A stretch of DNA of 64,000 nt from assembly GCA_000092065.1 (NCBI GenBank), contig CP000584.1. One strand, 5' to 3'. This document shows positions 1-53,591 of the stretch, piece after piece (the first letter of the stretch is position 1; each line of letters starts with the position of its first letter). The stretch is from Ostreococcus lucimarinus. Taxonomy: Eukaryota. The position numbers and the translations under genes are program-made. The notes under the pieces were generated by a model. The model did no database searches. It was not told where the DNA came from and saw only the letters and a program-made list of their open reading frames with translations.

Positions 1-3000
1 GCGGTGGCGTACACACCTTCAAGAACATCGAGTAACACGAAGAGTGTGTCGACGTTGAAAGACGCGCGCGACGACGCCTCGGCAGACAAGTCGTACGCGG
101 CGGACACCAGGAGCGCTTGAGTCTTAACGCGCACGATCGCCGCATTGACGTTCACCTCCCATGCGGCATCATCGTGACCTCGAATGAAAACGTCGAAGTC
201 AGGCGTTGTTTCACCGAAAGCCTTCTTCAGCGCCTCCATGCACTGGTGCCACTCTCGCTCCTTGATTGACGAAGCGCCATTGATGAGCAAGCGCTTGAAA
301 GCCACGACGCCGCACGCGGCGAGCTGCTCGTGCGAACGCGACGCGAGACCGCACAATAGCTCGAGCAAATCTGGCATAACTCCGGCCTCGACGATTGGTT
401 CGTGAAACTGCACCGCCAAATCGACGACGAGTTCAAGACAACGCGTACACGTGCCGTACAACCAATCATCGATGTCCTCCGCCGCTACTTCGTACTCGAC
501 ATCGCCGCCAATCGTTCTCGTGCTCGGCATGATATCCGCACGGACGTGATCAAATATAGGGAAAAGAATGCGTCCGTACACGCGTGACCAAAACCCAGGA
601 GCGAACGAGCCGCCGTGGAACTTGAGCGTGTCGAACAACACCTCGAGCGCTGAGGTGCGAATTTCTGCGCGAGGGTCAAACGTGAGCTCAGAAAGTCCAG
701 CCAAAAGAGGGAACCAAAAGTATGTGTGCGCATCGGCGTCTGTGAAACACGTCGTGGTGACTGTTGACTTCATCTGTGTCACTTCCACGACACCATCCGT
801 CGCGAGCTGCTTCTCCGTCGCGGCGGTTTCTTCCAAGTCTCCGAGCGCGCCTTCGGCGAGCTTGAGAGCGCAAAAGCGCAGAAACGCGAGGGCGTTCAAG
901 CAAACTTCCGAACCCGCCTCAGAGTTTGTGAACGCAACGAGACAATTGACGCAGTCGGTAAACGCCACTGTATCGGTTTCGATGATGTAGTGAAAATGCT
1001 CGCGAATAATTCGCTCGATGGTCTGGAACGCCAGCGCCACGATTTGGCTACTTTCGTCCGCCGCCGCCGTGGTGAACACCATGAACATCGACTTCCAACC
1101 AGACTTGATATGCGCCACGCGAGCCTGCACCATCTGCGAAACACACCGAATGATGAGCTCTCTGATTTCGACAGCCGGAGACTGACGCATGACGATGACA
1201 AATGGTCGCAAAAATTCGTTTTGGAACGAGTAGTTGGCCAATTCGGTACGACTTAAGAATTTCATGGCGAGCTGTCGAAGAGAGTCGACTACTTGCATGG
1301 ATATTTGCAAGTTTGGCGAGCATCCCACCTTGACAAAGAAGTCGCTCAACACTTGCCATACTCTGGCCCAGATAAAACGAATACGATCCATGTTGAATGA
1401 AGCAACCTCGACAATCTTTCCGAGCGCGTACGCTCTCGGATGATTTGAAGACGTTTCTTCAATAGCAAGTTCACACAAGCTTCGAACGAAACCCACGATA
1501 GCATCACCGCTGAGATTGACGCTGGCGTGGAACAAATGATCAAGTTCATCGGGATGAAGTTGTTCGAGCACAGCTCGATCAGGTGGGTTCAAACCATCCA
1601 AGCCAAGTAAATCAAACTTTTGTTCGACCTCGACAGTGCTCGACGAATCGTCTCGCACGTTAACGTTGCTTGACTGCGGTGCGAGTGGAGACTTCAGTGC
1701 TCGGTCTGATGATATCGAACGCCGGAAGAGCCTAGGCCGGGCTTGTTTTTGTGCGTCGTCATCTCTACTGTATCCGGACTCCGAAAACAACGAACTATCG
1801 TTGAAACCGCTCGCGAGCGCATACAGATGCTCGTATCTACTCACACAAGCCAGAATTGTAGTCCACATGTCCCCGAGATCGTTTCCATTTTCGATCGCAA
1901 CGCGCACTAAAGTCTTCACCGCGATGACATTCTTCGTACGCATTGAGTGTGCATGATGCAAAGAAGTCAACTTTGTAAGGGACGCGATAAATGTGTCTCG
2001 AGTCTCTTGCATGCCGAGCGTCGAAGTGACGCTGATGACTCTTCGGAAACACTCCAAACAGTTCGATATCACGGACACACTTTCACTGTCTTCAAATGCA
2101 GTACCAAGCAGCGACAGTATGGGATTCCAGATCAATTCAAGCATCGGTTTCGCGCACCCGGCCTCCACGACGGTCAGAAAGCCTTTCGTCGTTGCGGCCC
2201 GCGCGCGAACTTGACTTATCAAATCGGCGGTGTCGATTTGTATTGTTTCTTCTTCTCGCTTACCAGACATGAGCGAAAAGAGGACATCCATACCTAATCT
2301 AGCGGAAAAGTTGTTCTTATCTTTCTTTTCCGCGGCGCTCAGAGCCACCTCTGCTGGCTCCTTCAATTTGATCTCGTTATTCACGATGCGGTCGTACAAA
2401 TCCTCGAGCACCTCGCTCGGCAAGTCTTGTCCGTCGTCGATCCCTCTGTTATTCCGAACAAACCCTTCCTTGGTCATTTTATTCTTAACCTGTGGGTTAT
2501 GCGCGTCCGTATTAAGCATGATGACAGAAAACGCCAAGACGTAAGCGGTGTCGGCACTCTTGTACACTTCCGGATTCAACTTATGGTAGCGCTCGGCAAA
2601 CTTCTCCATGAGCCTATCGATTTTTTGAGACTCACCTGGGAGGCGAAAGCCTTCTAAAAACTTGCGAATCGCGTCGTCAAGAGTTAGAGATGTGAAATCT
2701 AGCGCGTCAACGTATGCGTGCATGACCTGTAGCATCGGATCGTCGCGTTCACCCAAGTAATCGCCGACTACAGTCTTGTCCAGCCCAGGCGTCGTGCGTA
2801 AGAACTCGGCTATTTCATTGTGAGACGTCCCAAGGCGCCCAATCGATTGCAGATAAGCCAGACCTTTCTTCGCTTTCTTGTTGAAGAGAGTGATTCCCTC
2901 TTGGAACTCTTGCTTATCAGCCTTGAGCTTCGCTATGCTATCACCCAGATCCGCCGGGCTGCTCGTCTTCAAAGGTGTCGAAAATCCAGACTCAGATTCT

Positions 3001-4775
3001 TCCACGACGTCGTGCTGACTATCGCTCGTGCTCGCGTCGCCACCACTTTGTACCCTCACCCAATCGTCAAGTGATGCGACGAGGGTCGTCAAACATTCAA
3101 GCGCTTCGAGCTTGAGCACGGACTCGCGGGCCGCCTCTGGGCCGCTCGCCTGACTGACATCGACACCCTGCGCGATGCGAACCAAGGACAGAACACAGCG
3201 CTCGAACACGTTTTGGCTGTCTAAATCGCAGTCATAGTTCACGAAGAGATCAACCATGAGCTGCGAGTCGGCGCAGATGATTTGAAATCCCTTGACGAGC
3301 GTCGCGCGTTGATTGTATGCGCTCAACGGCGCGCCCTCCACGAGCTCGAGCGGCTTGAGCAACAACATAGGGAAAAAGAAACCAATTTCAGCCTTGAGGT
3401 AGGCCCGGTATCGAGTAAGCAGAGTCAAAAAGATTGAGCACGCTAGCTGATACGCTTCTGGAACATTAGGTGTCGCGTTGCTGACGATTGCGTCGCACAG
3501 ATATTCACGCATGGCGTCGGCAAAACGTGAGCTCGAAGAAAATGCATCCCCGGCGTTTTCGATGATAATCTTGAGCAACTGCAGCGACAACACTTTGCTT
3601 CGAACGAGCGCAACACCATTGACGTCGGAGCCTGGTTTTTTCGAGAGCTTGCACAGCGACCTAAAAACTAAAAAGGCATCTGTTTCGAGCTCAGAAGCTT
3701 GTTCTGTGCCCGAGGTGCGAGCGGGCGTCATAGCTCCCGGCGAAAACGCGTCCAACGACTGCGTCACCGCGTTCGGAGTCATAGGGGCGGTATCATTATC
3801 GAATTCGCTCTCCGTAATCTCGTGCTCGATTGCGTCCGATTTCACCACCGCGTCTGGGTCTGAAAAGTAATTGAACGATCCCACCGAATTCATATCCGTC
3901 GTGACTTTATTTACGAACGACTGTACCGCTGCCGACATGGCCGTAACGCCGTCAACTTCGGCTTCGGAACCAATCGGTCGAAGCAGGTCCGCAACGACAA
4001 TAGTCGGCGCTGAAGCGTGCGGGTCATCCGCCTCCAAACGATGAAAAACAGTCGTCAACATTTGCGTTAGCGTCGCCTTGGCTGTGTTTTGATTCACCTC
4101 TGACTTGCTCGAAAGGTAAATGTTGTAGCACGTCCGCACGACGCGCAAGAGCGCTCTATCGTGCACCTCGAACGTACGACTGCTCACTGCGGTGAGTATG
4201 CCCTTCAACACTTGTAACTCGACCGCCTCGTCTCGCACCTCCGCGGCGCCGCAGATCGCGTCCACGATTTCACCCGCGTGATTTCGCGCACCCGACGGCT
4301 CCGATTCGTCCCGCTCGCGCGACGCCGCGACCGTATCGCTCGCAACGTCGCCGTCATCCCGCGCGTCGACATCAGCCACGGCCTCCGCTCGTCCAGCCGC
4401 GTCGCTCGTCGACTCGAACCGCTCCAGCGTCCCGCCCGCGAGCGTCGCCCGTCCCTCCACCAAACCTCTCGAGATGAGCACCTGCACCGCTCCCAGCGCG
4501 GCCGCGATCACGCTCGCCGACCCGCTGTCCATCGCCGCGCGCAGTGGTGGCAGCACGACATCCATCTGCGCCTCTCGCAGCGCGTCCCCGCGTCCGCTCG
4601 TCGTCGTCGTCGTCGTCGTCGACGCCTTCGTCCCCAACGATTCAAACGTCCCATCCCGCGTCATCGCTCGCACCGCATCGATCGCATCGATGATAGCCGC
4701 GTGTTTCTTCGTCCCGCACGCGCGCTGGACGCGCTCGAGCGCGCCCTCGACGACGTCCACCGCGCCAGATGGCAT
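1..4775 (-). CDS. ARF guanine-nucleotide exchange factor of the BIG/GBF (Sec7-domain) family; continuous frame from ATG 4775 off the left edge (partial, 3' end outside window)
   Basis: Own minus-strand translation (absent from ORF track because no stop inside window): N-term 'MPSGAVDVVEGALERVQRACG...' preceded by in-frame TGA; Sec7 core '...FRLPGESQKIDRLMEKFAERYHKLNPEVYKSADTAYVLAFSVIMLNTDAHNPQVKNKMTKEGF...' read directly from complement of ~2430-2640; Sec7 ~690 aa from N-terminus as in BIG1/BIG2; no minus ORFs of this frame listed anywhere in 1-4775. Confidence 0.88.
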   Translation of the reverse strand, partial: MPSGAVDVVEGALERVQRACGTKKHAAIIDAIDAVRAMTRDGTFESLGTKASTTTTTTTSGRGDALREAQMDVVLPPLRAAMDSGSASVIAAALGAVQVLISRGLVEGRATLAGGTLERFESTSDAAGRAEAVADVDARDDGDVASDTVAASRERDESEPSGARNHAGEIVDAICGAAEVRDEAVELQVLKGILTAVSSRTFEVHDRALLRVVRTCYNIYLSSKSEVNQNTAKATLTQMLTTVFHRLEADDPHASAPTIVVADLLRPIGSEAEVDGVTAMSAAVQSFVNKVTTDMNSVGSFNYFSDPDAVVKSDAIEHEITESEFDNDTAPMTPNAVTQSLDAFSPGAMTPARTSGTEQASELETDAFLVFRSLCKLSKKPGSDVNGVALVRSKVLSLQLLKIIIENAGDAFSSSSRFADAMREYLCDAIVSNATPNVPEAYQLACSIFLTLLTRYRAYLKAEIGFFFPMLLLKPLELVEGAPLSAYNQRATLVKGFQIICADSQLMVDLFVNYDCDLDSQNVFERCVLSLVRIAQGVDVSQASGPEAARESVLKLEALECLTTLVASLDDWVRVQSGGDASTSDSQHDVVEESESGFSTPLKTSSPADLGDSIAKLKADKQEFQEGITLFNKKAKKGLAYLQSIGRLGTSHNEIAEFLRTTPGLDKTVVGDYLGERDDPMLQVMHAYVDALDFTSLTLDDAIRKFLEGFRLPGESQKIDRLMEKFAERYHKLNPEVYKSADTAYVLAFSVIMLNTDAHNPQVKNKMTKEGFVRNNRGIDDGQDLPSEVLEDLYDRIVNNEIKLKEPAEVALSAAEKKDKNNFSARLGMDVLFSLMSGKREEETIQIDTADLISQVRARAATTKGFLTVVEAGCAKPMLELIWNPILSLLGTAFEDSESVSVISNCLECFRRVISVTSTLGMQETRDTFIASLTKLTSLHHAHSMRTKNVIAVKTLVRVAIENGNDLGDMWTTILACVSRYEHLYALASGFNDSSLFSESGYSRDDDAQKQARPRLFRRSISSDRALKSPLAPQSSNVNVRDDSSSTVEVEQKFDLLGLDGLNPPDRAVLEQLHPDELDHLFHASVNLSGDAIVGFVRSLCELAIEETSSNHPRAYALGKIVEVASFNMDRIRFIWARVWQVLSDFFVKVGCSPNLQISMQVVDSLRQLAMKFLSRTELANYSFQNEFLRPFVIVMRQSPAVEIRELIIRCVSQMVQARVAHIKSGWKSMFMVFTTAAADESSQIVALAFQTIERIIREHFHYIIETDTVAFTDCVNCLVAFTNSEAGSEVCLNALAFLRFCALKLAEGALGDLEETAATEKQLATDGVVEVTQMKSTVTTTCFTDADAHTYFWFPLLAGLSELTFDPRAEIRTSALEVLFDTLKFHGGSFAPGFWSRVYGRILFPIFDHVRADIMPSTRTIGGDVEYEVAAEDIDDWLYGTCTRCLELVVDLAVQFHEPIVEAGVMPDLLELLCGLASRSHEQLAACGVVAFKRLLINGASSIKEREWHQCMEALKKAFGETTPDFDVFIRGHDDAAWEVNVNAAIVRVKTQALLVSAAYDLSAEASSRASFNVDTLFVLLDVLEGVYAT

Positions 4776-6771: not shown

Positions 6772-8583
6772 ATGCGCGTCGCGCGTCGCGCGTCGTCCGC
6801 GCTCGTCGCGCTCGTCGCGCTCGTCGCGCTCGTCGCGTGCGCGCCCGCTCGCGCGCTTCGCGACGGCGCGCCCGCGGTCGACCCGCGCGAGTACACCTCG
6901 TGCCGCCCGCTCGAAGCGCCCGCGCTCGAACGCTGCGCGTACGTCACGCAGAACCCGCTGTGCGCGCGCGACGAAGCGCTGGTGCCGTATTTACGCCTGC
7001 ACTACTGCTCGCTCGCGGGCGATGGGTTCGCGAGCGGGATCGCGAGCGGGGCGCTCGCGCTGACGCTCTTCGCGGCGCTCGCGAGCGTGGCGGAACGCTT
7101 CTTCGTCCCGGCGCTGCGAAACATCGCGCGAGGACTGGCGCTGCGGGATGACGTCGCGGGAGCGACGCTGTTGAGCTTTGGAAACGGGGCGCCGGATATA
7201 TTCGCGCAGATCGCGGCGTTGAGTCACGAGGATGTGGCGGAGAGCGCGGCGTTGGCGGTTGGCGCGGTGACGGGCGCGGGCGCGTTCATCGCGAGTTTCG
7301 TGTTTCCGTGCGTGGTGTTGATCGCGACGAGAGCGGCGAGCGGGCGGGGGTTGGTTTTGGATAAGTGGAACTTCGGGAGAGACGTGGGGTTTTACGCCGT
7401 GGCGTCGGCGATGGCGCTCGGATTTTTTTTGGACGGGCGCGTGGAGGCGTACGAGGCGGCGGCGTTGTTTTCGCTGTACGCGGCGTATTTGTTTGTCTTG
7501 CTTTCGGGGCGAAGGCTGAAGCGGTTCGCGCGCGCCGTCGTCGCGCTCGTTCGCTACGGCGGCGATGATAGCGATAGTGATAGTGATTCATCCGTCGCTT
7601 GGTCGGATGACGAAGCGGCGGGCGAGCTTGTGCGAGACGCCGACGTTCGCGCGCCGATGCTGGAGACGGGCGATGACGGGGACGGCGACGAGGAAGCGCC
7701 AGTCGAAGGTGACGACGACGGCGACGACGACGACGATGACGACGACACGCGTTCGACGTCGTCTGATTCACACAGACCGATCCTGTTGATGATTGGGCAG
7801 AACGTGGCGCACGCGTTCAAGAAGATGGAGATTCCACTCGTCGCCACGCTTCGTTTGACAATGCCAGAGCTCGGCGACGAAACCGTCTCGATGCGGCACG
7901 CGGTGGCGTTGCCGATCGGTGCGCCGCTGTTTTTGTTATTCGCCACGGGTATGATGCCGGATCATATACGCTGGGTTGGCTTGAGTTATGGTATCGGCGT
8001 CTCTCTCGTGTGCGCGTTCATCATCGTTCAGTCGTGGTCGCACATTGGCGATGTAGCATCGATTCGCGCGTTGCTCGTCGCAGTTGCGTTTTTTCAGTCC
8101 ATACTGTGGATGAACACGGCGGCGAGCGAGCTCGTTTCTTTGCTCAGCGCGATCGGCAAGGTGACTGGCGTGAGTGAAGCCTTACTCGGCGCGACAGTCC
8201 TCGCGTGGGGGAACTCAGTCGGTGACTTTGTCTCCAACACCGTCGTCGCTCGCGCGGGCAACCCGAACATGGCAATCGCCGCGTGTTTTGCAGGGCCACT
8301 GATGAATCTTCTCGTCGGCACCTCGTTCGGACTTTTGCTTCACGTCGCCAAATACGGCCCTGTCACCGGCTACGTCATGCCTAACGAGCTGATCTTGCTC
8401 GGTGGTGCGCTGATGTTCGCATTGTTTTACGCGCTCTTCGTCATACCCTTCGTGCACAAGTGGCGCGTGGGGAAGAACGCGGCGTACGGCATGATTGGCT
8501 TTTACTTTTCATTCTCCATAGTGTACGCGTTGACGAGCACGCATTGCATCTTCCGAAAACCTTGGCTTGGGCCACCGCAGTAG
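6772..8583 (+). CDS. cation/Ca2+ exchanger, CaCA superfamily (CCX/NCKX6-like), with signal peptide and acidic cytoplasmic loop
   Basis: alpha-1 'LLSFGNGAPDIFAQI' and alpha-2 'LAWGNSVGDFVSNTVVA' repeats; about 10 TM segments; N-terminal 'ALVALVALVALVACA' encoded by 9-bp tandem repeat gcgctcgtc x4; loop 'DDSDSDSDSS...GDDDGDDDDDDDD'. Confidence 0.85.
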   Translation: MRVARRASSALVALVALVALVACAPARALRDGAPAVDPREYTSCRPLEAPALERCAYVTQNPLCARDEALVPYLRLHYCSLAGDGFASGIASGALALTLFAALASVAERFFVPALRNIARGLALRDDVAGATLLSFGNGAPDIFAQIAALSHEDVAESAALAVGAVTGAGAFIASFVFPCVVLIATRAASGRGLVLDKWNFGRDVGFYAVASAMALGFFLDGRVEAYEAAALFSLYAAYLFVLLSGRRLKRFARAVVALVRYGGDDSDSDSDSSVAWSDDEAAGELVRDADVRAPMLETGDDGDGDEEAPVEGDDDGDDDDDDDDTRSTSSDSHRPILLMIGQNVAHAFKKMEIPLVATLRLTMPELGDETVSMRHAVALPIGAPLFLLFATGMMPDHIRWVGLSYGIGVSLVCAFIIVQSWSHIGDVASIRALLVAVAFFQSILWMNTAASELVSLLSAIGKVTGVSEALLGATVLAWGNSVGDFVSNTVVARAGNPNMAIAACFAGPLMNLLVGTSFGLLLHVAKYGPVTGYVMPNELILLGGALMFALFYALFVIPFVHKWRVGKNAAYGMIGFYFSFSIVYALTSTHCIFRKPWLGPPQ

Positions 8584-8605
8584 ACATTTGTTGTTGTATT
8601 GTACA

Positions 8606-9646
8606 TTACAAGGATCTCGCGTACTCTTTCGCGCGTTCCAAACTACCGTCGAACGCCTCCGCGAGCGCTCGCGCTGCGTCTTCCGCATTTCGTGGCTGTC
8701 CCCCTCGCTCGAATAATTTAATCCAGTGGCGCTTTCGAAAGTTAATGAACCAGTTATTGACCTGCGTCGCGTCGAGTTTTGTTTGCGCGATGAGTTCGCG
8801 CTTATCATCTTCAGTCGGGTACGGCCACACGATGTTTTCGGACCACCAGTTCTTTAGCACCTCTGTGGATTGGTCTGGAAGCTTGCCTTTCTTTCGTTTT
8901 CGCATGAACTCCGACTTGAGCGTCATAATACTGCTCGCGTACTTACGTTTAAGGGCTTCTCTGAGTCGTTCCTCGTGGTCGCGACGCTGTTGCGAGTTAG
9001 ACAGTATCTGATCAAAGTCGCCGCTCGCCGCGGCGTGCTCCGCCGCCGTAGCCGGCGCTCGGCGTTTGCTCTCTGCGGCTTCACCTCGAATATCGGCGCT
9101 TTTCACCACATCCGAACGCACTTTCCGCGCGCGCGTCTCGAGTTCTCGACAGCACGACTTCGCGTCTTCGTATAGCGCGTGTAGCTCCTTGACGTACGAT
9201 TCAAGTTCGTGCGTGCACTCTCGCATGAACCGGTCCAAATCTCGTTGCGGTACGTCATGCGCGCCGCCCGAGCTCGACGCGTCTTCATTCATCACCTGAA
9301 CCGAGTACAACATCGCATCGCGCTCTCGATCGAGCGCTTCCAACACATCACCCTCAGCGCCAATTTGCCGGCACTCGTAATACGCTTCCACAAGCCGCGG
9401 ATACATGGGATGAGCGCGCACCGCGAGCGTCATCTCCTCTGAATCCGTCGCGCTCTCGCTCGAGCCCGTCTCTCTAACCTTTGTCCCGATGAACGCCTCG
9501 ATTTCATCGGCAAAACCGGGCAACGCGTCGACGTCGTCGCAATCAAATCCGCGCGCGCCGTCGTGAAAACAATCGTGCGTCGCGCACGCGAGCACATCCC
9601 ACTGCGCCGACTCCACGCTCGCGTCAAAGTCCATCGAGTCGAACAT
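8606..9646 (-). CDS. KNOX: KNOX-class TALE homeodomain transcription factor (KNOX1/KNOX2/ELK/homeodomain)
   Basis: C-terminal 'RKRKKGKLPDQSTEVLKNWWSENIVWPYPTEDDKRELIAQTKLDATQVNNWFINFRKRHW' = ELK + TALE homeodomain with PYP loop; upstream 'AHPMYPRLVEAYYECRQIGA' = KNOX1; ATG at 9646 verified (cat on plus). Confidence 0.85.
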   Translation of the reverse strand: MFDSMDFDASVESAQWDVLACATHDCFHDGARGFDCDDVDALPGFADEIEAFIGTKVRETGSSESATDSEEMTLAVRAHPMYPRLVEAYYECRQIGAEGDVLEALDRERDAMLYSVQVMNEDASSSGGAHDVPQRDLDRFMRECTHELESYVKELHALYEDAKSCCRELETRARKVRSDVVKSADIRGEAAESKRRAPATAAEHAAASGDFDQILSNSQQRRDHEERLREALKRKYASSIMTLKSEFMRKRKKGKLPDQSTEVLKNWWSENIVWPYPTEDDKRELIAQTKLDATQVNNWFINFRKRHWIKLFERGGQPRNAEDAARALAEAFDGSLERAKEYARSL

Positions 9647-9913
9647 GTCGCGCGCGCGCCGGTCTCAATTCAGTCCCACGCCGCGTCTTCCCGCGCCCCG
9701 CTCGAACGGCACCGCACTGTCAACCACCACAAATCGCGCGTCCGGCGCCGCGGAGCGCTCGCCGCGCGCGCGACCGTGACGCCTCGCGTCGCTCGCCGCG
9801 CGACGAAAATAGTTCGCCGCGCGCCGCAGAGTTAACAATCCAATGCTCACGCCTCCAGACCGCGCCGTCTCGAAACCCGAGACGCGTCCGGGACGCCGCG
9901 CGTCGACGCAGGC

Positions 9914-10519
9914 ATGCGCGATGTGCTCCGCGCCGTCGCGCGCGCTGCGTCGACGTCGCGCGCGCGCGCGGCGACGCTCGACCGCGGCGCGGCGTCGAAG
10001 CGTCACGGCGCATTCGACCGCGCTTTCCGACGTTTTTCTTCCTCGGAAGACGACGTCGCGGCGAGAGTGCGCTCGAAAGTGCGCGCCGGGGAGCAGCCAG
10101 ACTTCATGGACGTCGCGGGGCACGTGTTCGCGAGGCGCGAGGGCGCGAGCGCGCGGACGGGTGGTGGTCGCACGCGCGGCGAGCGAGGCTGGGACTGGCA
10201 CGCGTGGCAACTGCTCGTCGCGTGCGTGCCCGCGGCGATGTCGTACGCGTGCGTGATGTATATCGATAAGAACTACGTGCCGGTGTACGTGAATGAGATG
10301 GAGGCGCGCGAACGGGCGAGGGAGGCGAAGATTATGGAGACCACGGCGCCGGCGGACGCGAGGCGCGACGAAGAGGCGACGAGGCTGCGCGCGCGATTGG
10401 CAGAGTTAGAGGCGAGCGTGCGCGAGGTAGGGGCGCGCATGGCGAGTTTAGAGCAACCGAAACCTAGCGAAGACGCGCAAACGGCGAGTGAAGGCGAGAA
10501 ATCTCGAACGACGGCGTGA
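9914..10519 (+). CDS. hypothetical protein: basic presequence, one TM helix, C-terminal coiled coil
   Basis: 201-aa ATG-initiated ORF; TM 'WHAWQLLVACVPAAMSYACVMYI'; 'EARERAREAKIMETTAPADARRDEEATRLRARLAELEASV' coiled coil; overlapping minus ORF is R-rich nonsense; no homolog recognised. Confidence 0.35.
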   Translation: MRDVLRAVARAASTSRARAATLDRGAASKRHGAFDRAFRRFSSSEDDVAARVRSKVRAGEQPDFMDVAGHVFARREGASARTGGGRTRGERGWDWHAWQLLVACVPAAMSYACVMYIDKNYVPVYVNEMEARERAREAKIMETTAPADARRDEEATRLRARLAELEASVREVGARMASLEQPKPSEDAQTASEGEKSRTTA

Positions 10520-11213: not shown

Positions 11214-11343
11214 GGCGACGGCGGCGGTTCGCGTCTTGCACTGCGGCCGGGCTCGGCGCGCTCGGCGCGCGCGCGTCGGTCGTTCGGTCGGCGCTTCTAC
11301 GGTTACAATCGCGCGCGTCGCGTCGCGCCCGAGCTACGGCTAC

Positions 11344-11892: not shown

Positions 11893-12741
11893 GAACGCGG
11901 GCACCGACGACGCGTTCGCGTCCGCGGCGTCCCGGTCGACGTCGCGCGGCATGGCGCGTCGGCGTCGCGCGATGGCGGCGCGAACGGGCGCGCGCGCGTC
12001 GTCGTCGGCACATCGCGACGGCATGCCCGCGGTCGTGCGTCGAGGCGAAGAGTCGAGCTCGGACGACGACGACGACGACGACGACGTCGACGCCGTCGCG
12101 TGCTCGCCCGAGCGCGCGCGCGCGGCGTCGCCGACGACGCGAAGCGCGCGCGCGCGCGCGACGAACGACGGCGACGCGCGCGACGACGCGCGGTCGAACG
12201 CGGCGCGCGTCGTCGAGCGGCGACGCGCGGTGGTGGCGCGCGACGCGAGCGACGACGACGGAGGCGGCGCGCGCGCGCGCGCGGGCGCGGACGGACGGGG
12301 GGAGGGCGCGCCCAACACTAAATTCGTCGCGGCGTGCGTCGCGCCGCTGCGAGACGGACCGATCGCGCGCGCGGCGGTCGCGGCGAAGGCGCGCGATCGA
12401 GATTTGGGGATATTATCGCAGACGTCGGCGTCGATGACGAGGGTGAACGCGCACGCGAGGGAGGCGGCGTTGGCGGCGAGGGAGGCGGCGGATACGACGC
12501 GGCGGTTGACGCGACGGCACGGACGAGACGACGACGACGACGACGAGGCGTAGGCGTGGGCGGCGCACGTTTCGGGGCACACGGAGAGGTGGTATTTCTT
12601 AGACGACGTGTAATAGAGCTTAGCGATGCACCACGAGGGCGACGTCGTCGCCGCGCGCGCCGCGGCGCGCGCGCTCGCCGGCTCGAACGAACCGCCTCGC
12701 CGCACACGCGCGCGCATCGATCGCTCGCCCGCGCGCGCGCC

Positions 12742-15234: not shown

Positions 15235-15369
15235 ATTCCATCGCAAACTCGGAAACTTGCTTCGCCACAACTACTGGGCTGTTGCGTCACCGCTGTCGAC
15301 TGTGCTCGGCATGGATCCGATTCGATTCCACGTCGCGCATCCAAAGCTCTGAGGACTCTCGAAAACTGT

Positions 15370-16443
15370 TTAGCTTCGATTATCGATTGATATTCTACGT
15401 GAATCTTCCTCGTTTTCTCTATGTTTTTCCGCGAGCGATTTATCGTGCGCCACCGTGGTCAACGCGACGCCTAAAATCGTAACAATGGCGCCGACGATTT
15501 CACGCACGGTCAAGATTGGCGTACCTACGAGGGCGTGTGAAAACAATGTTTGAACGATTGGCAACAGCGTCAACGACACGCTCGCGACGAGAAGTGGCAG
15601 GTTTTGAACCGCAACGGTAATCGCCAAGTGTCCCACAGCGATGAGTACACCAACGGCGATGATGAATCGAACATCGTCGCAGTGCGGCCAAGCGAACACG
15701 CCGTAAGGCGGAGTGAGTGACCAGTCAGCTTGATCTGGCACGATCGCAAGAATTAGAAACGAGCACATCATCATGATGATAGTTGCAAATCCTTGAACGA
15801 TGAAGACGCTTGCATTTGTAATCCTGGGTTGTAATCCTGGGTACATCGCATTCTGGGTGCGCCGCATGGATGCGATGTACCCAGCGTACGAGATGGCCGA
15901 ACAAAGTGCAACGAGATCACCAGTGATCGTAGACGGGCGTTGCTGATCACGACGGTTGGAATACGTCGTTGTGATGATTGCCCCAGATATGGTTACGCCC
16001 ACGCCGAACCACTCCGTCCGACTTGGAAACGTCACCAACTCGGACTGGGCATGTCTACTCACGAAAGCAGCACACGCGGCGCCGAGCAAAATGAAAACGG
16101 GATGAACCTGCGCGAAGAGCGCGGTCCGAGGAAACGTCGTCATCTCTAGAGCGATATTCCACGTCGCGTACGACAGTTCTAGGCACACACCGACGACGAA
16201 AAGGGTGAGAATGACCGTTTTCGTCCATCGGATGCTATCGTCAGTAAAACAAGACCAACAGAGCGAAGGAAACAAAAACATCGCCGAAATCTGACTCCTC
16301 CACGAATTGCGCACAATAGGAGGAACCTCGACTAGGTCAAACATCGGGCCGCCAATTCCACAGGCGCACATCACGACGAAAAGCGCGAAAATCCCCGTCC
16401 AACGCGAACGCGGTGCCATGTTGTGAGGACGCACGTGCGACAT
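15370..16443 (-). CDS. multi-pass membrane transporter, drug/metabolite-transporter (EamA-like) superfamily (tentative); first 11 codons of listed ORF lie in a tandem duplication, so start taken at second ATG (alternative 16419)
   Basis: about 10 predicted TM helices across 357 aa; duplicated halves; no soluble domains; family call from topology only. Confidence 0.5.
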   Translation of the reverse strand: MSHVRPHNMAPRSRWTGIFALFVVMCACGIGGPMFDLVEVPPIVRNSWRSQISAMFLFPSLCWSCFTDDSIRWTKTVILTLFVVGVCLELSYATWNIALEMTTFPRTALFAQVHPVFILLGAACAAFVSRHAQSELVTFPSRTEWFGVGVTISGAIITTTYSNRRDQQRPSTITGDLVALCSAISYAGYIASMRRTQNAMYPGLQPRITNASVFIVQGFATIIMMMCSFLILAIVPDQADWSLTPPYGVFAWPHCDDVRFIIAVGVLIAVGHLAITVAVQNLPLLVASVSLTLLPIVQTLFSHALVGTPILTVREIVGAIVTILGVALTTVAHDKSLAEKHRENEEDSRRISIDNRS

Positions 16444-16540: not shown

Positions 16541-17463
16541 GTCGGTTTGATCCACGCCGCCTTGGCCTTTCCCGCCCGCGAATCGCCTACGAGGTTGGCC
16601 AACGCGTTATACGCTCGCGCCGTCTCGCTCGGCTTGAATGTTTTTTCATTCGAAAGCCGCTGCACGACGTCCAAACCTTGTTCGACGCGACCAAAAACGA
16701 TGTTTTTGTTGTCGAGCGACGGTACCGGCGCTGGACCAGTCGTAATGAGAAATTGAGCCGTCGTTCCGTATTCGCCATCCTTCGCCGCTGACTCGAGCGC
16801 CAGACTCACCGTGCCCGGCCTAAAGTGCCGTCCCTCGAACGCGGACGCGCGCGTGACGTCGCCGTTACTAAACCTCTCCCCGCTCAGCGCCGAAACCTGC
16901 CCCAGTCTCGGACTCCCGCTCTTACCTCCGACGACGTACCCGTTGCCTTTGTCGATTTTATGAAACACCGTCCCCGCCAGCGTCGGCGTCGACGCCGCGT
17001 TCGAGCACAGCGCGAGAAAATTCCGCACCGTATCCGGCGCGGCGTCGCCGTACAATCCGACGACGATCCTCCCGAACGGTTCCGGCGTCGCGCACAGCGC
17101 GCCGCCGTCGTCGCCGAGCGCGCGCGCCGCGTTCGCCGCGCCCTCGCACGCGCCCACGTCCAGGTACACCCTCGCCGTGACGTTCGCCGTCGCGTCCATC
17201 GCGCGCGCGCGCGGCGTCATCACCGCCGCCGCGCACGCGCCGACGAGCGTCGCGCGCCGTCCCGTCGTCGCGTCGTCGTCGTCGTCGTCGTCGTCGTTCG
17301 TTTTCCCGTTTTCCAGCCGCGCGCGCCGCGCCGCCGCGCGCGCCGTCCCTCGCGCCGCGCGCGCGTCGCGTCCGACCGCGCGCGCGCTTCCCGCGTCGCG
17401 TCCGACCGCGCGCGCGCTTCCCGCGTCGCGCGCCGTCGCCGCCGCGACGCCGCGCGACGCCAT
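16498..17463 (-). CDS. cyclophilin-type peptidyl-prolyl cis-trans isomerase with bipartite plastid/thylakoid-lumen (twin-arginine) presequence; alternative start 17220
   Basis: 'GRIVVGLYGDAAPDTVRNFLALCS...FHKIDKGNGYVVGGK...FSNGDV...SLALESAAKDGEYGTTAQFLITTGPAPVPSLDNKNIVFGRVEQGLDVVQRLS...VITSCGVLDA'; upstream 'GRRATLVGACAAAVMTPRARA|MDA' = RR + hydrophobic + AxA; S/A/R-rich leader containing a perfect 30-bp tandem repeat. Confidence 0.78.
   Translation of the reverse strand: MASRGVAAATARDAGSARAVGRDAGSARAVGRDARAARGTARAAARRARLENGKTNDDDDDDDDATTGRRATLVGACAAAVMTPRARAMDATANVTARVYLDVGACEGAANAARALGDDGGALCATPEPFGRIVVGLYGDAAPDTVRNFLALCSNAASTPTLAGTVFHKIDKGNGYVVGGKSGSPRLGQVSALSGERFSNGDVTRASAFEGRHFRPGTVSLALESAAKDGEYGTTAQFLITTGPAPVPSLDNKNIVFGRVEQGLDVVQRLSNEKTFKPSETARAYNALANLVGDSRAGKAKAAWIKPTRALVITSCGVLDA
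17371..17430. repeat. perfect 30-bp tandem repeat x2 inside the cyclophilin transit-peptide coding region
   Basis: tccgaccgcgcgcgcgcttcccgcgtcgcg x2 read directly (encodes ARDAGSARAVGRD AGSARAVGRD on minus strand). Confidence 0.85.
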
Positions 17464-53166: not shown

Positions 53167-53591
53167 CCTCGCCGTCGACGCGCGCGATCACGCGCGGCAG
53201 AGTGCGCCGTCGATCGCGAGCGATCGCGCCGCAGGGCGGCGAGAAACCCATAACTTCGACGGCGACGGCGGCGACGCGCGATGGTGGCCGAAACCTCGAC
53301 GTAACTGTTTGCCAGGGTGAGCTTCGCTGGCGCGGAGTGCGGCCTTCAAAGCCGTAGCGGCTTAGCGGCCGAGTCGTTCGATTCGACCTCACTGGCGACG
53401 CGATTTTTGCCGACGCCGACGCCGACGACGGCGACGCGCGACGACGGCGCGCGCGCGCGCGGCCGACGCGTTCTTCGACGTCGCGCGCGCGAGCGTTTTT
53501 TGTTTTTTCACGGTGATAAATCGAATGTAGACTACATACATCTCGTATTCGAGCCACCTCGAATCCTATACATTCCCTATATGCGCGCCCA

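What the first reader, a model, noticed from the sequence alone, without database searches (positions are those of the whole stretch)
8606..9646. KNOX TALE-homeobox gene in a picoalgal-type genome
This is a complete KNOX1/KNOX2/ELK/TALE homeodomain protein. In Chlamydomonas the KNOX (GSM1) and BELL (GSP1) heterodimer is the gamete-to-zygote switch. In Mamiellophyceae-like picoalgae sex has not been observed, so an intact KNOX gene is evidence for a cryptic sexual or diploid programme. The gene is head-to-head (268 bp) with an uncharacterised TM/coiled-coil gene that could be co-regulated.
Basis: partly seen in the sequence, partly recalled or inferred. Interest (0 to 1): 0.5.

Follow-up and report, generated by a model that had tools for sequence, protein, structure and literature searches.

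The report
Known Ostreococcus lucimarinus KNOX homeobox gene
This is the intact, single-copy KNOX-type homeobox gene of the marine picoalga Ostreococcus lucimarinus; it is real and under purifying selection, but published surveys of algal TALE homeobox genes have already catalogued and classified it, so it is ordinary.

Summary
Window 8606-9646 (minus strand) is an uninterrupted 346-aa ORF. Homeobox_KN, ELK and KNOX1 pass Pfam's curated cut-offs. KNOX2 falls below the cut-off but aligns column for column with the KNOX2 domain of a moss KNOX protein.

Residues 75-346 are 100% identical to the published "Ostlu_5313_KNOX" of Ostreococcus lucimarinus CCE9901 (Joo et al. 2018, class KNOX-Chloro, domains KN-A/KN-B/ELK/KN-C1). 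Gao et al. 2015 had already listed a four-domain KNOX protein in this species.

The O. tauri ortholog (70% identical, chromosome 4, same gene order) binds both non-KNOX TALE partners, Mam-A and Mam-B, in yeast two-hybrid assays. All seven orthologs examined are intact. dN/dS against the nearest distinct lineage is 0.10.

The gene is not in the candidate mating-type region, which the literature places on chromosome 2. No partner gene lies in the window.

The head-to-head neighbour is a conserved orphan found only in Ostreococcus-like lineages. Its 267-bp spacing is ordinary for this compact genome, and nothing indicates co-regulation.

Cryptic sex in this group is already argued from meiosis genes, recombination and mating-type loci. 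Verdict: already known, low interest. A role in the zygote programme is inferred, not shown.

The parts
8606..9646 (-). Complete, intronless coding sequence of the O. lucimarinus KNOX-Chloro TALE homeobox protein (346 aa; stop codon at 8606-8608)
   Evidence: ORF found. Residues 75-346 are identical to the published Ostlu_5313_KNOX. The exact protein occurs on about 500 contigs and in 1100 blocks of marine metagenome assemblies.
9425..9646 (-). N-terminal acidic region (residues 1-74), absent from the published 272-aa JGI-derived model. It contains a motif, DALPGF..E.EAF.G, shared by the closer (Ostreococcus-like) orthologs but not recognisable in the most distant one (L011)
   Evidence: The alignment with the O. 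tauri 346-aa model and metagenomic orthologs starts at the same MF... N-terminus. In M. commoda an N-terminally truncated KNOX construct was used in yeast two-hybrid assays 'for preventing self-activation' (PMC6219170). A role as a transactivation region here is inferred.
9329..9421 (-). KNOX1 / KN-A half of the MEINOX heterodimerisation domain (residues 76-106)
   Evidence: Pfam KNOX1 scores 31.0 bits against a cut-off of 26. The stretch is identical to the KN-A extraction printed for O. lucimarinus g5313 in Joo et al. Data S2, apart from one residue (Tyr82) missing from the machine-read supplement text.
9134..9244 (-). KNOX2 / KN-B half of the MEINOX domain (residues 135-171), divergent
   Evidence: Pfam KNOX2 scores 13.7 bits, below the cut-off of 27. 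11 of 16 family members hit KNOX2 at E<=1. The motif DLDRFMRECTHEL aligns with DLDRFMSEYSYLL inside the moss KNOX2 domain, residues 315-363. The KN-B HMM of Joo et al. gives E 1.3e-05 for Ostlu_5313.
8903..8968 (-). ELK domain (residues 227-248)
   Evidence: Pfam ELK scores 34.0 bits against a cut-off of 21.3. It is present in 15 of 16 family members.
8723..8902 (-). TALE homeodomain (residues 249-308) with the three-residue loop extension (W-P-Y-P at 274-277) and recognition helix NNWFINFRKRHW
   Evidence: Homeobox_KN scores 62.3 bits. The best solved-structure relatives are the PKNOX1, TGIF and MEIS homeodomains. Residues W274 P275 Y276 P277 and N297-W308 are invariant or nearly invariant in the family alignments.
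8609..8722 (-). C-terminal extension (residues 309-346) corresponding to the chlorophyte-specific KN-C1 domain
   Evidence: It is conserved to the last residue (…GSLE.A..YARSL) in all seven orthologs. Ostlu_5313 is annotated KN-A/KN-B/ELK/KN-C1 in Joo et al. Table S2.
9647..9913 (.). 267-bp divergent intergenic region shared with the neighbour gene; presumed promoter region
   Evidence: Coordinates. Conservation between species is weak, with only a short CTATTTT..GCGCGC patch shared. Divergent-pair spacers elsewhere in the window range from overlap to 940 bp.
9914..10519 (+). Head-to-head neighbour: a 201-aa orphan protein restricted to Ostreococcus-like lineages. It is listed as context and is not shown to belong to the KNOX system
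   Evidence: No Pfam family. Only 3 homolog clusters in 5.8 billion proteins. It has a conserved core (VRAG.RP.F.DV..HVF … GWDWHAW plus a hydrophobic stretch plus a charged helix) and is syntenic in every orthologous locus long enough to show the KNOX upstream flank (L001-L007, L009-L011, L013).
8584..8605 (.). 22-bp tail-to-tail spacer between the KNOX stop codon and the stop codon of the convergent Na/Ca-exchanger gene (6772-8583, +)
   Evidence: The same arrangement occurs in other lineages with spacers of 19-47 bp.

Best explanation
The feature is the single KNOX-class (KNOX-Chloro) TALE homeobox gene of Ostreococcus lucimarinus, on the chromosome syntenic with O. tauri chromosome 4. The protein is a transcription factor. 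Its TALE homeodomain binds DNA, and its N-terminal MEINOX region (KN-A/KNOX1 plus KN-B/KNOX2) mediates heterodimerisation with a non-KNOX TALE partner. In Mamiellophyceae the partners are Mam-A (the GSP1 homolog, Ostlu_27999) and Mam-B (Ostlu_33640), both encoded elsewhere in the genome. Shown here: gene identity, domain architecture, integrity and purifying selection. Shown in the literature for the O. tauri ortholog (70% identical) and the M. commoda ortholog: physical interaction with both partners. Inferred by analogy with Chlamydomonas GSM1/GSP1 and land-plant KNOX/BELL: the dimer forms after gamete fusion and switches on a diploid (zygote) programme. I put that biological role at roughly 0.55; the 0.85 confidence given below covers only gene identity and the heterodimerising transcription-factor mechanism.
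For: The ORF is intact. Homeobox_KN, ELK and KNOX1 exceed the Pfam cut-offs. The protein aligns colinearly with moss and Haematococcus KNOX proteins across KNOX1-KNOX2-ELK-homeodomain, whereas mammalian PKNOX2 and the O. lucimarinus Mam-A and Mam-B proteins match only the homeodomain. No Meis_PKNOX_N or POX domain appears in any of 16 family members. Residues 75-346 are 100% identical to the published Ostlu_5313_KNOX, class KNOX-Chloro. The O. tauri ortholog lies on CAID01000004.2 (chromosome 4) with the same flanking genes. Gene order is also conserved in more distant lineages. dN/dS is 0.096 at dS 0.72 against the 87%-identical lineage, and all seven orthologs lack stops. The coding sequence is invariant apart from one synonymous site across six metagenome contigs whose surrounding region differs by 0.1-0.4% from the window. 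Yeast two-hybrid interaction of KNOX with Mam-A and Mam-B in O. tauri and M. commoda is reported in PMC6219170. A four-domain KNOX protein was listed for O. lucimarinus in PMC4617109.
Against: No expression, localisation, DNA-binding or genetic data exist for this gene in O. lucimarinus. No paper in the searched library mentions the O. tauri locus tag. Sex has not been directly observed in this group (PMC8557840). In another prasinophyte, Pseudoscourfieldia, both GSM1 and GSP1 homologs are co-expressed in the haploid strain, so Chlamydomonas-style partitioning between gametes is not universal (PMC13213038). KNOX2 is below Pfam's cut-off. Interaction was tested for the O. tauri protein, not this one.
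Confidence: 0.85

Rival explanations
1. The gene is a functional KNOX/TALE heterodimer component, but it acts in vegetative haploid cells (for example in stress, cell-cycle or diel regulation) rather than as a sensor of gamete fusion. Its retention would then say nothing about sex.
For: In Pseudoscourfieldia marina both Gsm1 and Gsp1 homologs are upregulated together in the haploid strain (PMC13213038). Mamiellophyceae carry two non-KNOX partners that both bind KNOX, which is more than a simple plus/minus pair requires. The KNOX gene is not on the chromosome that carries the mating-type locus.
Against: In every green-lineage organism where KNOX has been tested genetically (Chlamydomonas, Physcomitrium, Marchantia), it acts in the haploid-to-diploid transition or the diploid phase (PMC6219170; abstracts of PMC8478417 and PMC8476127). 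Vegetative-culture transcriptomes of Mamiellophyceae yielded only 0-1 TALE sequences against 3 in each genome (Table S1 of PMC6219170). That fits silence of most TALE genes in vegetative cells. Chlamydomonas GSM1 is, from my own knowledge, likewise not encoded within the mating-type locus, so an autosomal position is not evidence against a sexual role.
Confidence: 0.12
2. The gene is a decaying relic of a lost sexual cycle, that is, a pseudogene or a gene under relaxed constraint.
For: Sex has never been directly observed. The gene's GC3 (0.66) is lower than that of its immediate neighbours (0.78-0.87). One ortholog (L010) looks frame-broken at first sight.
Against: dN/dS is 0.096 with unsaturated dS. 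There are 40 invariant columns across 16 proteins, including moss and Haematococcus, and 79 invariant columns among the 14 prasinophyte orthologs. The identical protein occurs in 1100 blocks of the assembly collection. The L010 frame break is resolved by a canonical 91-nt GT-AG intron that restores a colinear 351-aa protein.
Confidence: 0.02
3. The gene is a generic MEIS/PKNOX-like or BELL-like TALE protein rather than a KNOX-clade member.
For: The best solved-structure matches are animal PKNOX1, TGIF and MEIS homeodomains. KNOX2 is below the Pfam cut-off.
Against: The structure database hits reflect which structures have been solved and cover only the homeodomain. ELK and KNOX1 pass their cut-offs. 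There is no Meis_PKNOX_N or POX hit. The full-length colinear alignment is with plant and algal KNOX proteins only. Published phylogenies place this very sequence in the green-algal KNOX clade.
Confidence: 0.01

Closest known systems
Ostlu_5313_KNOX of Ostreococcus lucimarinus CCE9901 (Joo et al. 2018, BMC Biol 16:136, Table S2; class KNOX-Chloro)
   Same: It is the same gene. The 272 published residues are 100% identical to window residues 75-346, with the same KN-A/KN-B/ELK/homeodomain/KN-C1 architecture.
   Different: The published model is N-terminally truncated and has no start methionine. The window ORF adds 74 residues that align with the O. tauri 346-aa model.
Ostreococcus tauri KNOX, ostta04g04290 / Q01AF4 / XP_003078964 ('Homeobox KN domain')
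   Same: It is the ortholog: 70% amino-acid identity, 345-346 aa, intronless, with identical flanking gene order (UBP protease, Nop16, orphan, KNOX, Na/Ca exchanger, methyltransferase, sedlin, Sec7 GEF). It was shown by yeast two-hybrid to bind Mam-A and Mam-B.
   Different: It belongs to a different species, and dS is saturated between the two. No experiment has been done on the O. lucimarinus protein.
Chlamydomonas reinhardtii GSM1 (KNOX), which pairs with GSP1 in the zygote
   Same: It belongs to the same class (KNOX-Chloro, a single KNOX gene per chlorophyte genome) and uses the same MEINOX-mediated heterodimer logic (PMC6219170).
   Different: GSM1's role as a minus-gamete factor that activates zygote genes is demonstrated. 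Here that role is only inferred. The Mamiellophyceae partners (Mam-A, Mam-B) lack the PBL homology domain found in GSP1/GLX.
Land-plant class I/II KNOX proteins (for example STM, KNAT3, moss MKN)
   Same: The KNOX1-KNOX2-ELK-TALE homeodomain order is colinear, with hhalign probability 99.9% against a moss KNOX protein.
   Different: There is no class I/II split. A chlorophyte-specific KN-C1 tail replaces the plant C-terminal extensions. KNOX2 is more divergent.
Animal MEIS/PKNOX
   Same: The TALE homeodomains are homologous (51% identity to PKNOX2 over 57 residues), and MEINOX homology is deep and ancient.
   Different: There is no Meis_PKNOX_N hit, an ELK domain is present, and similarity is confined to the homeodomain.

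Membership tests
KNOX (green-lineage KNOTTED-like TALE homeobox; class KNOX-Chloro) | TALE homeodomain with a three-residue loop extension between helices 1 and 2 | tested here: met
   Homeobox_KN scores 62.3 bits against a cut-off of 24. W-P-Y-P at residues 274-277 is invariant in the family.
KNOX (green-lineage KNOTTED-like TALE homeobox; class KNOX-Chloro) | KNOX1 / KN-A subdomain of MEINOX | tested here: met
   PF03790 scores 31.0 bits against a cut-off of 26. 15 of 16 members hit it. The KN-A HMM of Joo et al. gives E 2.3e-12 for this protein.
KNOX (green-lineage KNOTTED-like TALE homeobox; class KNOX-Chloro) | KNOX2 / KN-B subdomain of MEINOX | tested here: met
   On its own the Pfam score fails the cut-off (13.7 against 27). 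However, the profile alignment places residues about 135-172 opposite the above-cut-off KNOX2 domain (315-363) of a moss KNOX protein (probability 99.9%). 11 of 16 members hit at E<=1. The published KN-B HMM gives E 1.3e-05. I count the feature as met, but divergent.
KNOX (green-lineage KNOTTED-like TALE homeobox; class KNOX-Chloro) | ELK domain immediately upstream of the homeodomain | tested here: met
   PF03789 scores 34.0 bits against a cut-off of 21.3, at residues 227-248.
KNOX (green-lineage KNOTTED-like TALE homeobox; class KNOX-Chloro) | KN-C1 C-terminal domain specific to chlorophyte KNOX | tested here: met
   Residues 309-346 are conserved to the C-terminus in all seven orthologs. 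The sequence is annotated as KN-C1-bearing in Joo et al. Table S2. No independent KN-C1 profile was available to score.
KNOX (green-lineage KNOTTED-like TALE homeobox; class KNOX-Chloro) | Phylogenetic placement inside the Viridiplantae KNOX clade | tested here: inconclusive
   No tree was built here. The supporting proxy is that only KNOX proteins align outside the homeodomain. Published trees place this sequence in the green-algal KNOX clade (PMC6219170; PMC4617109).
KNOX (green-lineage KNOTTED-like TALE homeobox; class KNOX-Chloro) | Heterodimerisation with a non-KNOX TALE partner | not testable with these tools
   This was shown by yeast two-hybrid for the O. tauri and M. commoda orthologs. 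The partner genes Ostlu_27999 (Mam-A) and Ostlu_33640 (Mam-B) exist in the species but not in this window.
KNOX (green-lineage KNOTTED-like TALE homeobox; class KNOX-Chloro) | Function in the haploid-to-diploid transition | not testable with these tools
   This is inferred from Chlamydomonas and bryophytes only.
Animal-type MEIS/PKNOX | Meis_PKNOX_N (PF16493) N-terminal domain | tested here: not met
   No hit at E<=1 in any of 16 family members, whereas the mammalian PKNOX2 hit P0018 carries it.
Plant BELL / algal GSP1-GLX (non-KNOX TALE) | POX/SKY-BELL or PBL domain, and a BELL-type recognition helix | tested here: not met
   No POX hit. Similarity to O. lucimarinus Mam-A and Mam-B is limited to 39-58 residues of the homeodomain.

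The most novel reading that the evidence does not exclude
The evidence does not exclude that the Ostreococcus KNOX protein, with its two alternative partners Mam-A and Mam-B, works within a single haploid cell. In that case it would be a condition-dependent switch (as the co-expression of both TALE partners in haploid Pseudoscourfieldia hints) rather than a detector of gamete fusion. The Ostreococcus-specific acidic N-terminal motif (DALPGF..E.EAF.G) and the KN-C1 tail would then be lineage-specific regulatory modules. An intact KNOX gene would then not be evidence for sex at all.
Probability: 0.12. Interest if true: 0.45.

Novelty: already known. Interest (0 to 1): 0.1.

Why it matters
KNOX and its TALE partners form the conserved haploid-to-diploid switch of the green lineage. 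Their retention in the smallest free-living eukaryotes is one of several indirect arguments that these ecologically dominant picoalgae are sexual. That argument has been in print since the Ostreococcus and Micromonas genome papers and the 2008-2018 TALE surveys. This window adds three small things. First, it extends the O. lucimarinus gene model by 74 N-terminal residues. Second, it gives a quantitative purifying-selection estimate. Third, it shows that the protein is essentially invariant in the O. lucimarinus-like assemblies of the many metagenome samples that carry it. The finding is useful as a sanity check and is not a discovery.

Tried and rejected
(1) I looked for a second TALE or BELL-like gene in the window. 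tblastn with the KNOX homeodomain and with the published O. lucimarinus Mam-A and Mam-B proteins found only the KNOX gene itself.

(2) I looked for mating-type-locus features. The window's GC content (0.52-0.73, mean about 0.6) is that of ordinary chromosomes. The O. tauri ortholog is on chromosome 4, whereas the candidate mating-type locus is in the low-GC part of chromosome 2. The 87%-identical variant (L008, L013) could have been a second mating-type haplotype. I rejected that because its flanking Nop16 and Na/Ca-exchanger genes are equally diverged (88-91% aa), which marks it as a sister lineage.

(3) I looked for conserved promoter elements in the divergent spacer. Alignment across four lineages is poor, with only a short CTATTTT/GCGCGC patch, and nothing is interpretable.

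(4) I tried to assign a function to the neighbour. It has no Pfam family and only three homolog clusters, all in close relatives.

(5) The apparent frameshift in the L010 ortholog is better explained by a 91-nt GT-AG intron.

(6) dN/dS between more distant pairs is unusable because dS is saturated or undefined.

(7) A literature search for expression data on the O. tauri locus tag found nothing.

(8) Rfam and tRNA scans of the window found nothing related to the gene.

I did not use structure prediction, fold search or the 1.84-billion-protein representative search, because the identity was already settled.

Full report
**Observation**

Window 8606-9646 on the minus strand is an uninterrupted ATG-to-stop ORF of 346 codons.

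- Pfam places a Homeobox_KN domain at residues 267-306 (62.3 bits, cut-off 24).
- It places an ELK domain at 227-248 (34.0 bits, cut-off 21.3).
- It places a KNOX1 domain at 78-106 (31.0 bits, cut-off 26).
- A KNOX2 match at 135-171 reaches only 13.7 bits, against a cut-off of 27.

So three of the four claimed domains pass curated thresholds and the fourth does not on its own. I tested the fourth separately. BLASTP aligns residues 76-308 colinearly with residues 258-500 of a Ceratodon (moss) KNOX protein (E 1e-32). A profile of 14 prasinophyte orthologs aligns to the same moss protein with hhalign probability 99.9% (E 3e-31, 231 columns). The moss protein's own KNOX2 domain passes the Pfam cut-off and lies at residues 315-363. 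That is exactly opposite the window's DLDRFMRECTHEL… stretch. 11 of 16 family members hit KNOX2 at E<=1. The four-domain architecture is therefore real, with a divergent KNOX2.

**Whose gene it is**

The homolog search returned 18 proteins. The cluster at 70% identity contains the Ostreococcus tauri protein Q01AF4 / XP_003078964, 'Homeobox KN domain'.

The supplement of Joo et al. 2018 (BMC Biol 16:136, PMC6219170) prints the sequence 'Ostlu_5313_KNOX' of O. lucimarinus CCE9901. It is classed KNOX-Chloro with domains KN-A/KN-B/ELK/KN-C1 and is 272 aa long. A string comparison shows those 272 residues are 100% identical to window residues 75-346. The window is thus O. lucimarinus, or a strain indistinguishable at this locus, and the gene is already catalogued. 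Gao et al. 2015 (PMC4617109) had also listed O. lucimarinus among green algae with a four-domain KNOX protein.

The published model lacks a start codon. The window ORF supplies 74 further N-terminal residues, which align from the first methionine with the O. tauri 346-aa model. This is a small annotation improvement.

The rest of the window fits a compact picoeukaryote nuclear genome. It holds closely packed, apparently intronless genes for an ASPM-like protein, a kinesin, CDC45, Beclin/ATG6, an MFS transporter and others.

**KNOX versus other TALE classes**

The best solved-structure matches are animal PKNOX1, TGIF and MEIS homeodomains. This only reflects which TALE homeodomains have been solved.

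- Outside the homeodomain, the protein aligns only with KNOX proteins: Haematococcus over residues 43-328 and moss over 76-308.
- Mammalian PKNOX2 and the O. lucimarinus non-KNOX TALEs Mam-A and Mam-B match only 39-58 residues of the homeodomain.
- None of the 16 family members hits Meis_PKNOX_N or the BELL POX domain.
- The C-terminal 38 residues, the chlorophyte-specific KN-C1 of Joo et al., are conserved to the last residue in all orthologs.

I did not build a new tree. The published phylogenies place this very sequence in the green-algal KNOX clade.

**Integrity and selection**

I recovered the coding DNA of six other lineages from public assemblies. They are 87, 70, 66, 66, 56 and 50% identical in protein.

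All are free of internal stops. One of them, L010, appeared to have its N-terminal segment in another frame. A canonical 91-nt GT…AG intron at L010 5956-6046 joins the two parts into a colinear 351-aa protein. The intron is inferred, not verified by RNA.

Nei-Gojobori dN/dS against the closest distinct lineage is 0.096 (dN 0.070, dS 0.72). Other pairs have saturated dS and are uninformative.

Within the species, six metagenome contigs differ from the window by about 0.1-0.4% over most of the aligned region (one 856-bp stretch of L002 reaches 1.8%). Across the 1041-bp coding sequence they show a single difference, which is synonymous. The identical protein is indexed in 1100 blocks of the assembly collection. 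The pseudogene reading is excluded.

**Genomic context**

The O. tauri ortholog lies at about 727-740 kb of CAID01000004.2 (chromosome 4). Its gene order matches the window: UBP protease, small ORFs, Nop16, orphan, KNOX, Na/Ca exchanger, methyltransferase, sedlin, Sec7-type GEF. The block is also preserved in lineages only 50-56% identical in KNOX.

The candidate mating-type loci of Mamiellophyceae are large (450 and 650 kb) low-GC regions of chromosome 2 (PMC5498103; PMC8557840). So KNOX is not linked to the mating-type locus.

The 87%-identical variant is not a second haplotype. Its flanking genes are equally diverged (88-91% aa), which indicates a sister lineage. No partner TALE gene is in the window. 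The literature places the O. tauri Mam-A gene on chromosome 17.

**The neighbour**

The neighbour at 9914-10519 (+) is head-to-head with KNOX across 267 bp.

- It has no Pfam family and only three homolog clusters, all in close relatives.
- Its orthologs share a conserved core: VRAG.RP.F.DV..HVF, then GWDWHAW followed by a moderately hydrophobic 19-mer, then a charged helix.
- Nothing points to co-regulation. Divergent-pair spacers in my crude gene map of the window range from overlap to 940 bp.
- The whole block, not just this pair, is syntenic.
- The spacer is poorly conserved between species.

**How it most likely works**

- Shown in this analysis: the protein has a TALE homeodomain with an invariant recognition helix (NNWFINFRKRHW). 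It also has a MEINOX region.
- Shown in the literature: the O. tauri and Micromonas commoda orthologs interact in yeast two-hybrid assays with both Mam-A and Mam-B, while the two partners do not interact with each other. Domains outside the homeodomain are required. An N-terminally truncated M. commoda KNOX construct was used to prevent self-activation. This suggests the acidic N-terminus is an activation region.
- Inferred only: by analogy with Chlamydomonas GSM1/GSP1 and with bryophyte KNOX/BELL, the heterodimer forms after gamete fusion and turns on the diploid programme.

One further observation fits silence in vegetative cells. Vegetative-culture transcriptomes of related strains yielded 0-1 TALE sequences, against 3 per genome (Table S1 of PMC6219170). 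This is weak evidence.

A real rival is a non-sexual or within-cell role. In Pseudoscourfieldia both partners are co-expressed in the haploid strain.

**Novelty and verdict**

The gene, its class, its partners and the biochemical interaction of its ortholog are all published. The case for cryptic sex in this group already rests on stronger evidence: meiosis genes, recombination signatures and two ancient mating-type haplotypes. The co-regulation idea is unsupported. This is an already known feature of low interest.

Noticed in passing
window 53311-53397 (+): A selenocysteine tRNA gene (anticodon TCA). Rfam tRNA-Sec scores 72.9 bits and ARAGORN agrees. From my own knowledge, this fits the selenoprotein-rich proteome reported for Ostreococcus.
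   Followed up: partly
window 9425-9646 (-): The published O. lucimarinus KNOX model (Ostlu_5313, 272 aa) lacks the first 74 residues. The window ORF starts at an ATG whose product aligns with the O. tauri N-terminus. It carries an acidic motif, DALPGF..E.EAF.G, that is shared by the closer orthologs (not recognisable in L011).
   Followed up: yes
protein of window 8606-9646: The exact protein is deposited in NCBI only as MDA9599192.1, 'homeobox domain-containing protein [bacterium]'. An Ostreococcus contig has evidently been binned into a bacterial metagenome-assembled genome.
   Followed up: no
L010 5956-6046: An Ostreococcus-like lineage (56% identical KNOX) appears to have a 91-nt GT-AG phase-1 intron in the N-terminal region. 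The gene is intronless in O. lucimarinus and O. tauri. The prokaryote-style gene call there (336 aa, GTG start) is wrong as a result.
   Followed up: partly
L013 ~1170-1200 (minus strand): In the 87%-identical sister lineage, the orphan neighbour gene carries an in-frame stop inside its most conserved motif (GWDWHAW*LLVAF). This rests on a single contig, so it could be a sequencing error or a true nonsense allele.
   Followed up: no
window 8584-8605: Only 22 bp separate the stop codons of the convergent KNOX and Na/Ca-exchanger genes (19-47 bp in other lineages). Their 3' UTRs must therefore overlap or be extremely short.
   Followed up: partly
window ~11258-11341, 12196-12249, 15235-15409, 17232-17427: Alignments of six metagenome contigs to the window break at these places, which lie between or at the edges of genes. 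This indicates small indel or structural polymorphisms among otherwise 99.6-99.9% identical O. lucimarinus genomes.
   Followed up: no
window 1-4775 (-): The lowest-GC stretch of the window (0.52-0.53 over bases 1-4000) coincides with the 3' part of a 1761-aa Sec7/BIG-type ARF-GEF gene that runs off the left end of the window. The gene was placed by synteny with L001-L006.
   Followed up: partly
window 8606-9646 vs neighbours: KNOX has a lower third-position GC content (0.66) than its immediate neighbours (0.78-0.87). This may reflect low expression or weak codon bias. It was not tested.
   Followed up: no
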